Shown: positions 29,001-31,401 of the stretch, one piece after another | How the letters are laid out: each line of letters starts with the position of its first letter | Numbering within the stretch: the stretch's first letter is position 1 | Source: Octopus sinensis | Lineage: Eukaryota | NCBI RefSeq assembly: GCF_006345805.1 | Contig: NC_043006.1 | Span: 63,736,001 to 63,800,000 of the forward strand | DNA: 64,000 nucleotides | Direction: 5' to 3' | The notes under the pieces: generated by a model | Told to the model about the DNA's origin: nothing | Databases searched by the model: none | Seen by the model: the letters and a program-made list of their open reading frames with translations, nothing else | Made by a program: the position numbers and the translations under genes

Positions 29001-29120
29001 ACCAGTATTTAACTTTTTTTCATGAGATGTTGCTGTGGAAAATTAATTATTATTCAATGTACGGTGGGGATAAGAGAATTATAAACCAAAGTCTTTAATA
29101 CATTCAACATAAGTTGCTCT

Positions 29121-30737
29121 CTTAGTTCCCCTTGTTCAGAGTTAATTCTTCCTAATTTTGTTGCTCCGTATGCATGTGTATTGCTTGCTCAGTTCCACTT
29201 TACAACTGTTTATTTGTTGAGTGTTAATTTTTGTTAAACATTTTGTTGCACGGTTTTTGTCTGTGTGTGTTGAGACAGACAAGGAAGAAGTGGACGGCCC
29301 CTCCCTACCGGGAGAGATGGCCAGACGAAGTATGTTCGAAAGTGTGTCGGATTTATCGACTTCTGAAGAAGAACTTGAAAAGGCGATAAAGAAAATGGAC
29401 AAGCAATTAGGCAACACATACGCAGGAGTGACAAGAACGGAGGAAAGAGAAATAGACTTGGCCAAGTTTCCAAGCTACCAGGCATTTATTAAAAAGGTCG
29501 GCGGTGAAGTGGAGTTGTCACTGCCACCAAAACGAAGAGAGTTGCATGAACGAAGGACCATCAAGTACCGAGTTTATGCCAATGGAAAATAGAAGTCGTC
29601 GGTATGGAAACAAAAGAAGAAGCATTAAAAAGAACGGAAGAAGACATAATATTCTTGGCAAGAGGCATAAATTTCGGTACAGTGGTGGTCCAATTCAAGA
29701 ATGAAAGTGTGGCGAGGAAAATGGCAGCGAGAACGGTGAAGACAGAAAAGGTGTTCCTTCTGCCCTCATATCTGGGTAGAAAAACTACTCGGATCAGTGT
29801 GGAGGGGATAGTGGCAGCCGTAATCAGTGGATGTAAGGAAGAAGTTGACATCCTCCATGCTACAGTGAAGGATGAAGGGGTGCAGTTTTGGAATTGAACG
29901 GGCAAGCGGAGGCTGAAATATTGGAACAATTGGCTGAGAATATCAGAATGGGAAGTGTTATTATGAGAGTGTGGTTGGAGGGAAGAGCTCCACGCTGCTA
30001 CAAGTGTGGCCTGAAAGGTCACTTAAGAGCTAACTGCCCTCCCCCATCAAAGGAAATTGATGCGGAACCTCAAAGAGAGGTAGTGGCCAAAGAGCAGATA
30101 TCAACGGAGAAAGACACAACGGAAGAGGAGGAGGTACAAAAGGAATGGGAAGAAGGCAGAAGGAGGAAGAGAAGAAGGAAAATAAATAGTGCTGAACCCC
30201 AATCCACCCCAACACCAGCCGCACCCTCTGAGACCCACCCTTCCCCTGCAGACAGTGAACCCACCCGCTCCCCACCAACAAGAAAACAAAAAAAAGAAGC
30301 AAACAGACAAGATACCGCAAAAAAACCTAGGCCCAATTTTCTAGGTATTTCGAGGAAAAAAGACGTAAAAGAAATATTGAAAGACTATCACTGGTGTGAC
30401 AAGGACAGTGATAGGTACGCTGTAATCTCGGAAGAACGTATAGAAGAATTCGTGGAAAAATGCAAAAAGAAAAACTATAAAGTGTTTAGATTTGAAATAG
30501 ATGAGATAATAACGGAAATGGAAAAGAGATTTGAGATGAAAATAGAGCACAATATGTATTACATTCAGGATAAAGTACGAAGGACACGTAAGTGATGCTA
30601 GCGGATGGGGCCGTTAGCATCACTTTCATTTTTCATTTTCGTATTTCAATTTCCATATTTATGTAATTGTGAGGTTTTATGTCCCCAATGTTTGTATTGT
30701 CCCCTCTGTGTAGCCCTTTATGGGTAATAAAGAAAAG
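29121..30737 (+). mobile_element. non-autonomous retroposon encoding only a gag-like/ORF1 CCHC protein (HAL1-like architecture)
   Basis: 14-bp TSD ACATAAG(T/C)TGCTCT at 29107-29120 and 30738-30751. The ORF runs 29317-30595 with two frameshifts and a CYKCGLKGHLRANC knuckle; AATAAA at 30726. No endonuclease or RT inside. Confidence 0.8.
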
Positions 30738-31401
30738 ACATAAGCTGCTCTGAGCTGCGTTAAAAAGAATGTGGCTACTACAACAGTGATGGTCGAAGCA
30801 TTCTGATGATCAGTTGAAAAGCATTGCTTTCAATCCCAGCTACAAGTCCATTGCACTGTCGAAGCGTATCATGGACAATTGCTGGAAGAGGAGTTTCACT
30901 GGGTTTTATCCGTGATTCCTCGCAGCAAATACCAAAACAATTTTTTGGTGAAAATGAAATGAATGAAGAAGAGTTATATATTTCAGCACCATGGTTGGAG
31001 AAGAGGAGCCTGCCACAGAAAGAGTATGTGAAACGTTGGAAGGATGTGATGAGAAAGGTGGGTGTTAGTAACCCAGCTTAATCATCAAAGAAAGGAAAAA
31101 TTAGTTGCTGGGCCTTATAGGCTGCCGGGTTCAAAATTCGGAACCTGCACTTCTCCCCCTTTTCATTTTAACATATGTTATGTTTTCTAATGTTACTAAA
31201 AAAAAAAAAAAAACGCACTAAAGTTCTCGTTATAAAGGCAAAAGTAAGCCAAGTTTTCGTTTATGTCATATTATAACTAAATTTTTAAGTTTCATTCGAA
31301 CTCTCATAACATTCTTTGTAATTGTTTGTCTTGTTATGTCCAAATTTATGTAAAATCGTATGATTATAATAAAGATTTTATCTTTCAGCACCATGACGTC
31401 A

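What the first reader, a model, noticed from the sequence alone, without database searches (positions are those of the whole stretch)
29107..30751. Complete TSD-bounded retroposon that encodes only a gag-like CCHC ORF1 (a half-LINE)
Seen: a 1617-bp unit lies between two 14-bp repeats (ACATAAGTTGCTCT / ACATAAGCTGCTCT). It has a ~195-nt leader and one reading frame (29317-30595, two frameshifts) with a CX2CX4HX4C knuckle at 29996-30037 preceded by WLEGRAPR. A ~140-nt 3' UTR ends in AATAAAGAAAA. There is no room for an endonuclease or RT. Known: ORF1-only HAL1 elements exist in vertebrates and are mobilised in trans by L1-clade ORF2; CCHC ORF1s are typical of Tx1/L1-related LINEs. Inference: it retrotransposed as an ORF1-only unit. 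Diverged relatives at 23345-23992 and 37730-38200 point to an old, successful family. I do not know of this being described in cephalopods.
Basis: partly seen in the sequence, partly recalled or inferred. Interest (0 to 1): 0.8.

Follow-up and report, generated by a model that had tools for sequence, protein, structure and literature searches.

The report
Octopus half-LINE riding a Tx1 partner
This is a broken copy of a 1.6-kb jumping-gene family, in what is likely an octopus genome, that encodes only a predicted RNA-binding protein and likely borrows its copying enzyme from full-length LINE elements that share its tail and often lie head-to-tail with it in long chains.

Summary
Confirmed and extended. 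The 1617-bp unit between 14-bp target-site duplications is a frameshifted copy of an ORF1-only retroposon family ('H'; 396 exact hits to a junction 18-mer). Of 133 H units examined, none is followed by an endonuclease and 123 end in the tail. 45 of those 123 keep an intact 420-469-aa ORF, with dN/dS 0.12-0.24 between subfamilies. The protein is two predicted RRMs plus one CCHC knuckle, a Type I LINE ORF1p, not a capsid gag. Candidate partners were found: ~5.2-kb Tx1-type LINEs with intact 1132-aa ORF2, homologous ORF1 and the same 45-nt 3' tail. A second ORF1-only lineage ('D') and a SINE-like repeat share that tail. Autonomous, H and D units form mixed head-to-tail arrays of up to 36 kb, many at one site of a non-autonomous Helitron. 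H keeps the partners' ORF1/ORF2 junction, a perfect splice-donor motif; D lacks it. ORF1-only elements (HAL1, HeT-A, Ag-Sponge) and Tx1 targeting of DNA transposons are known. A Tx1-derived, array-building version in octopus was not found in 10 paper searches; Repbase and Dfam could not be checked. Trans-mobilisation and expression are untested.

The parts
29107..29120 (+). 5' target-site duplication (14 bp)
29121..29316 (+). 5' UTR (196 nt). Relatives align from about unit position 86-122; the extreme 5' ends differ between subfamilies
29317..30595 (+). ORF1, broken in this copy by frame-breaking deletions near 29584 and 29877. Intact natural relatives are 420-469 aa: N-terminal helix, two predicted RRMs, CCHC knuckle, acidic/basic and P/T/S-rich linker, variable C-terminus
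29996..30037 (+). single CX2CX4HX4C zinc knuckle
30583..30597 (+). remnant of the partner's ORF1/ORF2 junction (AG|GTAAGT then ATG). This copy has one change just before the GT
30590..30625 (+). 15-bp RNA hairpin overlapping the stop codon; variants favour G-U over A-C pairs (106 vs 12 cells over 44 variants)
   Evidence: (z -2.6)
30692..30737 (+). about 45-nt 3' tail with a small terminal stem-loop and AATAAAGAAA, shared with autonomous Tx1-type LINEs, family D and a SINE-like repeat
30738..30751 (+). 3' target-site duplication (14 bp, 13/14 identical)
23345..23992 (+). old 5'-truncated relative (part of the knuckle, P/T-rich linker, 3' UTR)
25808..26052 (+). SINE-like repeat with the same 3' tail (second copy 37224-37458, minus strand)

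Best explanation
The unit is a broken copy of an old ORF1-only retroposon family that likely moves by borrowing the endonuclease and reverse transcriptase of Tx1-type LINEs, which likely recognise the 45-nt tail that both share. SHOWN: unit structure, TSDs, absence of ORF2, purifying selection on ORF1, intact ORF2-bearing LINEs with the same tail, homology of the two ORF1s, and co-occurrence in arrays. INFERRED steps: (1) H arose from an ancestral Tx1-type LINE by loss of ORF2 just after its start codon, since the inter-ORF junction is kept. (2) A Pol II transcript is translated into ORF1p, which coats its own RNA; selection acts because copies that make ORF1p transpose better. (3) The partner's ORF2p binds the tail, nicks the target and primes reverse transcription, giving TSDs of mostly 11-23 bp and occasional 5' truncation. 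(4) The currently active families prefer one site in a non-autonomous Helitron and the 5' ends of their own kin. Repeated insertion plus local duplication then builds head-to-tail arrays, and Helitron copying spreads some insertions further. The window copy belongs to an older, dispersed subfamily and is a solo insertion.
For: 0 of 133 H units are followed by an endonuclease; 123 end in the tail. The median knuckle-to-tail distance is 765 nt (a slightly wider set of 128). TSD score >=11 at 27 of 61 distinct flanks vs 2 of 150 mismatched pairs. dN/dS is 0.24, 0.18, 0.14 and 0.12 in bins of rising dS, and 0.75 among near-identical copies (94 intact cores). 45 of 123 units have an intact ORF. Model pLDDT 86 with tandem-RRM matches. 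The partner has EN (PF03372) and RT (PF00078); 26 of 150 listed EN hits lie in frames of 1121 aa or more; its ORF2 is 30% identical to Xenopus Tx1 ORF2 (E 3e-93). Last-45-nt identity to four autonomous examples is 0.73-0.87, against shuffled means of 0.50-0.52; the preceding 100 nt are at or near shuffle level. GGTAAG precedes ORF2 in 38 of 39 VFV-type and 5 of 5 VVV-type loci (duplicates included), and AGGTAAGT is present in 99 of 117 H units. Five 5'-junction classes occur at the Helitron site, a 5'-truncated unit lies inside an array, and 16 of 35 array units are closest to a unit in another array.
Against: No experiment shows trans-mobilisation, and expression is untested. No autonomous element with an H-type ORF1 was seen (23 of 30 EN loci carry a VFV-type knuckle, 7 none, 0 H-type), so the parent is extinct or unsampled, and the family that mobilises H is not pinned down. 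Only the best 95 of 48,340 first-look candidates were scored. About half of the distinct flanks (34 of 61) show no clear TSD, and a few long matches are array duplications. The Helitron flank tree is star-like (1 starred branch of 66), so hitchhiking cannot be separated cleanly from repeated targeting. 19 of 35 array units are closest to a unit in their own array. No empty site was found for the window copy.
Confidence: 0.85

Rival explanations
1. The units are passive cargo: a few ORF2-deleted LINE remnants were multiplied by Helitron copying, segmental duplication and unequal crossing-over rather than by their own retrotransposition.
For: About a dozen of the closest relatives (L002-L011, L013, L016, L022, L023, L029) share flanks and one TSD inside a Helitron-like repeat. 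L032 and L050 share one internal deletion in the same flanks. C6 units are up to 99.8% alike within the array.
Against: Many distinct sites have their own TSDs. There is strong purifying selection across subfamilies with saturated dS. Arrays are mixed in content and order, with TSD-like spacers. The same Helitron site holds different elements with different junctions.
Confidence: 0.07
2. The ORF is a host RNA-binding (ZCCHC3-like) gene family, and the dispersed units are its processed pseudogenes or host-selected retrocopies.
For: The Atlas lists a ZCCHC3 RNA-binding-domain cluster at score 0.90. Octopus homologues are annotated as uncharacterised genes. dN/dS is low.
Against: The protein is homologous to ORF1 of RT-bearing LINEs here and falls among them in the tree. 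The tail and the inter-ORF junction are shared with those LINEs. Selection fades among young copies (0.75 at dS <0.03). Fish Tx1-like gene models also carry the ZCCHC3 domains fused to EN-RT. No spliced parent appeared among 96 matches (best hits only).
Confidence: 0.04
3. H is a helper rather than a parasite: its ORF1p serves the autonomous partner or the SINE in trans, or array read-through puts H and a downstream ORF2 on one RNA, as in the HeT-A/TART partnership.
For: H often lies directly 5' of an autonomous unit (C5, C9, C10a, C16). 77 of 123 units have a kin neighbour (biased sample). Copies end without poly(A). A perfect U1-type site sits about 140 nt before AATAAA.
Against: The partners encode their own ORF1. 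Many H units are solo (33 of 123). D lacks the motif (0 of 49) yet also forms arrays. There are no RNA data.
Confidence: 0.15

Closest known systems
HAL1 (half-L1) of mammals
   Same: Non-autonomous LINE derivative encoding only ORF1p; arose several times (PMC5753468, passages). Kojima groups it with HeT-A and Ag-Sponge as ORF1-present bipartite non-autonomous LINEs (PMC5786205, passages).
   Different: HAL1 derives from L1 with a Transposase_22-type ORF1p (type per PMC5203782 passages). Here ORF1p is tandem RRM plus CCHC, the partner is Tx1-type, a specific 45-nt tail is shared, there is no poly(A), and there are target preference and arrays.
Drosophila HeT-A with TART/TAHRE
   Same: An ORF1-only element and RT-bearing partners in mixed, same-direction head-to-tail arrays, with the ORF under negative selection (PMC5537684, passages).
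   Different: HeT-A is Jockey-derived and telomeric, and has a host function. These arrays are interstitial (telomeric repeats in only 1 of 23 stretches), have TSD-like spacers and sit in a Helitron. No host role is shown.
Tx1L/Tx1D of Xenopus; Tx1-Mar with SINEU in crocodilians
   Same: Tx1-clade LINE preferring a DNA transposon as target, a dependent non-autonomous element with the same preference, tandem insertions sandwiching a TSD, and hitchhiking considered (PMC4494074, passages and section 15).
   Different: The target here is a Helitron, and the dependants include protein-coding ORF1-only families. Mixed arrays reach 9 units and 36 kb.
Ag-Sponge (CR1-derived); Dictyostelium TRE5-A.2 (recalled, not found)
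   Same: ORF1 kept, ORF2 lost, mobilised in trans. The TRE5-A.2 details are from memory.
   Different: Other clades and hosts; no sequence comparison was made.

Membership tests
ORF1-present non-autonomous LINE (HAL1/HeT-A/Ag-Sponge kind) | Family encodes ORF1 and lacks ORF2 | tested here: met
   0 of 133 H units followed by EN; 123 end in the tail
ORF1-present non-autonomous LINE (HAL1/HeT-A/Ag-Sponge kind) | Retrotransposed as a unit (TSDs at independent sites) | tested here: met
   27 of 61 distinct flanks vs 2 of 150 null; examples
ORF1-present non-autonomous LINE (HAL1/HeT-A/Ag-Sponge kind) | ORF1 homologous to a LINE ORF1 and under purifying selection | tested here: met
ORF1-present non-autonomous LINE (HAL1/HeT-A/Ag-Sponge kind) | Mobilised in trans by a partner ORF2p | not testable with these tools
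   Shared tail, junction and sites only
HAL1 in the strict sense | Mammalian L1-type (Transposase_22) ORF1p | tested here: not met
   Pfam finds only zf-CCHC; the model is tandem RRM plus knuckle
HeT-A | Telomeric location | tested here: not met
   Arrays mid-contig (e.g. G000:C3:123.73M of 174M), flanked by Helitron halves; telomeric repeats in 1 of 23 stretches
Tx1 clade (partner LINE) | APE endonuclease plus RT in ORF2, with a Type I (RRM/CCHC) ORF1 | tested here: met
   the Type I/Tx1 association is per PMC5203782 passages
Tx1 clade (partner LINE) | RT groups with Tx1 rather than L1 in a reference phylogeny | tested here: inconclusive
   BLASTP 314 bits to Xenopus Tx1 and phmmer 221 bits to human L1 come from different programs; no clade tree was built
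Tx1 clade (partner LINE) | Target preference | tested here: met
   9 of 13 stretches fetched around intact ORF2s carry a Helitron anchor at the element's edge (some chosen for clustering); 4 of 29 Helitron copies found by flank search are filled
LTR/retroviral gag | LTRs, capsid fold, pol/env | tested here: not met
   No LTRs in the unit; the folded core is RRM-RRM-knuckle; retroviral PDB hits cover only the knuckle

The most novel reading that the evidence does not exclude
Octopus genomes host an interstitial counterpart of the HeT-A/TART system. Two ancient ORF1-only lineages and their Tx1 partners build arrays in a Helitron site. The conserved U1-type site and hairpin at the end of ORF1 suppress polyadenylation, so that H is transcribed through into a downstream autonomous unit and gains access to ORF2p from the same RNA. 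D, which lacks the donor, arose separately by splicing ORF2 out.
Probability: 0.15. Interest if true: 0.78.

Novelty: new variant of a known kind. Interest (0 to 1): 0.52.

Why it matters
The genome holds a young, complete set of elements that depend on one tail: autonomous LINEs, two ORF1-only lineages and a SINE-like repeat. Units in different arrays are typically 97-99% alike. That makes it possible to test directly why some non-autonomous retroposons keep ORF1 while SINEs do not (in a human L1 assay, Pol II transcripts need ORF1p; PMC2666806, abstract), and whether ORF1-only elements parasitise or assist their partners. It adds Tx1 to the LINE clades listed as yielding ORF1-only offspring (Jockey, L1, CR1; PMC5786205) and gives a Helitron as a Tx1 target. 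In practice these ORFs are being annotated as uncharacterised octopus genes.

Tried and rejected
Word-indexed protein search with the full ORF1 found nothing; the HMMER search of the core did find relatives. The single-sequence fold was uninformative (pLDDT 37) and was replaced by a 62-row alignment fold. One versus two origins of H and D: AU p 0.29, inconclusive (two odd rows dropped). The Helitron flank tree was mostly unresolved (no label shuffle was run). The search for an empty site of the window copy found only an unrelated repeat. A hAT-like reading of the right flank was not supported by Pfam. An Rfam scan of 21000-39000 gave only microsatellite-driven miRNA hits below gathering score, so the tRNA head of the SINE-like repeat is judged by eye only. 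Sequencing runs: 20 holders in 10 studies under 4 organism codes; no RNA holder listed; no reads were laid, so expression is open. The relative at 37730-38200 was not confirmed. Papers: Bao and Jurka 2010 (HAL1) was not held. The 10 searches listed no paper describing an ORF1-only Tx1 element or this octopus family. Most hits were seen as listings only, and no supplements were opened, although the O. vulgaris repeat library (PMC13282606) may contain these units. Earlier scan notes: nothing by sequence or place. No complex prediction was run.

Full report
Observation. The unit is as described: 14-bp repeats at 29107-29120 and 30738-30751 (13/14 identical), an ATG at 29317, three frame pieces, a knuckle at 29996-30037, a stop at 30593-30595 and a 142-nt 3' UTR without poly(A). 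No other 250-nt tile of the window (0 of 253) matches the repeat as well. Against natural relatives, this copy has frame-breaking deletions near 29584 and 29877 and an in-frame loss near 29805, so it is a dead copy. One cited relative (23345-23992) is confirmed; the other (37730-38200) is not. The closest named homologues are Octopus and Argonauta proteins, so the host is likely an octopus.

It is a family with a fixed ORF1-only build. The DNA search gave 54 matches (40 of 955 candidates scored), 24 of them near full length including the window's own. A natural intact copy (L030, 443 aa) gave 96 protein matches (95 of 48,340 candidates scored). An 18-mer at the end of the ORF has 396 exact hits against 0 for the control. 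I fetched these loci with flanks. After removing identical duplicates (186 to 177 knuckles) and keeping the family's knuckle signature, 133 H units remain. Of these, 123 end in the tail within 1300 nt, 0 are followed by an endonuclease, 8 have a damaged tail or are interrupted, and 2 run off the locus. TSDs scoring 11 or more occur at 27 of 61 distinct flanks against 2 of 150 mismatched pairs. Clean examples are 15-22 bp, with one group near 40 bp. Some long matches are array duplications.

The ORF is selected. 45 of 123 units keep one frame of 420-469 aa. Over the 218-codon core of 94 intact copies, pairwise dN/dS falls from 0.75 (dS <0.03) to 0.33, 0.24, 0.18, 0.14 and 0.12 as dS rises, and 981 pairs are saturated (pairs are not independent). 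This is the pattern expected when source copies need the protein and inserted copies then decay. An alignment-based model (pLDDT 86) matches tandem-RRM proteins (Foldseek E 1e-5; VIA Z about 8-9 for the first RRM). With the single knuckle this is a Type I LINE ORF1p, the type associated with Tx1 (PMC5203782, passages), and not a capsid gag.

Partner. At the ends of several clusters lie ~5.2-kb LINEs. They have an ORF1 30-40% identical to H, an ORF2 with endonuclease and RT, and the same tail. 26 of 150 listed endonuclease hits sit in frames of 1121 aa or more. One intact 1132-aa ORF2 is 30% identical to Xenopus Tx1 ORF2 (named). The clade call rests on similarity and ORF1 type, not on a reference tree. 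The last 45 nt of the window copy are 73-87% identical to four autonomous examples, 84% to a second ORF1-only lineage D, and 80-82% to a SINE-like repeat in the window. Shuffled means are about 51%, and the preceding 100 nt are at or near shuffle level. D has 49 distinct units ending in the tail and a 52%-identical homologue in O. bimaculoides. Whether H and D share one origin is unresolved (AU p 0.29). No autonomous element with an H-type ORF1 was seen (0 of 30 EN loci).

Junction. In the autonomous families the few bases between the ORF1 stop and the ORF2 start hold GGTAAG, mostly as AG|GTAAGT (38 of 39 and 5 of 5 loci in the two main types). H keeps the motif and the following ATG (99 of 117). 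In young subfamilies the ORF1 stop overlaps that ATG. This places the ancestral deletion at the ORF2 start (inference). D lacks the motif (0 of 49). A 15-bp hairpin follows in H; across 44 variants the non-Watson-Crick cells are 106 G-U against 12 A-C, which points to structure in the sense RNA, though related variants are counted more than once. The motif is a perfect splice donor or U1 site by established consensus; its function is untested.

Arrays and target. Units stack head-to-tail. Examples: six H then an autonomous unit (G000:C5:19.14M); H-D-auto-D-H (C14:25.85M); nine units of D and autonomous elements over 36 kb, including a 5'-truncated one (C3:123.73M). Many arrays lie at one site of a non-autonomous Helitron (5' TC, 3' hairpin and CTAG, between A and T; the Helitron call rests on these hallmarks). 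The empty site is seen in most copies, and 4 of 29 are filled. Among 38 filled sites there are five 5'-junction classes, including insertions at the same position in a shorter Helitron variant. The only starred clade of the flank tree mixes 4 filled and 7 empty copies. Spacers between units resemble TSDs. 16 of 35 units are closest to a unit in another array and 19 to one in their own, so both fresh insertion and local duplication act. Hitchhiking is also real: about a dozen relatives share one insertion inside a Helitron-like repeat. 77 of 123 H units have a kin neighbour and 31 abut the Helitron site; these rates are inflated because I extended arrays on purpose. The window copy is solo, and no empty site was found for it.

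Mechanism. Most likely (0.85) H RNA makes ORF1p for itself and borrows ORF2p through the shared tail. Structure, selection, partner, tail, junction and co-location are shown. Transcription, cis action of ORF1p and trans-mobilisation are inferred. Rivals are passive amplification alone (0.07) and a host gene family (0.04). A helper or read-through role (0.15) would be an addition to the main reading.

Known versus new. ORF1-only derivatives are known from the Jockey, L1 and CR1 clades (PMC5786205, passages; PMC5753468, passages). Mixed arrays are known from Drosophila telomeres (PMC5537684, passages). Tx1 targeting of DNA transposons, with tandem dependants, is known from frogs and crocodilians (PMC4494074, passages and section 15). 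The 2026 O. vulgaris annotation lists 13 recently active L1-Tx1 families, and 'autonomous', 'ORF' and 'nested' do not occur in its main text (PMC13282606; first third read plus passages; supplement not opened). PMC9115989 has no Tx1 mention (passages); PMC4758252 passages name an octopus SINE without a partner. Unchecked notes from this scan report ORF1-only families in fungi and protists, which lowers the surprise of the basic design. Verdict: a real, well-supported new variant of a known kind; interest 0.52.

Noticed in passing
window 25808-26052 (+), 37224-37458 (-); partial copies 21722-21938, 43525-43737, 56256-56476, 59642-59858: Abundant SINE-like repeat with A/B-box-like head (by eye) whose last 45 nt match the Tx1/H/D tail; these Tx1-type LINEs are therefore its likely partners. 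Two H units at G000:C2:169.36M are inserted in its head.
   Followed up: partly
G000:C3:123730300-123766300 (L255-L258); C7:96.72M; C17:14.51M: Arrays of D and autonomous units in one Helitron. The spacer copies vary (GGAGGAAA, GGCGGAAA, GGCTCCAAG) while the right flank stays fixed, as if the elements carry target-like 5' ends.
   Followed up: partly
L002-L011, L013, L016, L022, L023, L029, L032, L050: One H insertion amplified inside a Helitron-like repeat, including a shared internally deleted form.
   Followed up: partly
L178 about 3850 onward; P0176: An H 5' part runs into a C2H2 zinc-finger array, and a database protein joins this ORF1 core to C2H2 fingers; possibly chimeric gene models.
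   Followed up: no
window 45998-46471 (-): DEAD-box helicase exon (Pfam DEAD, E 8.5e-12). Whether the element lies within this gene was not checked.
   Followed up: partly
window 3385-8332: GC-rich stretch with Helitron Rep/helicase-like frames (by eye).
   Followed up: no
window 31281-31568, 38678-39154, 13357-13872: Decayed LINE ORF2-like fragments of other clades (by eye).
   Followed up: no
window 30993-31085: Short repeat with many 96-100% identical copies genome-wide, so probably young.
   Followed up: no
L017 about 655-1308 (-); L161; L019: Further divergent ORF1 types next to H units; whether they are ORF1-only was not determined.
   Followed up: no
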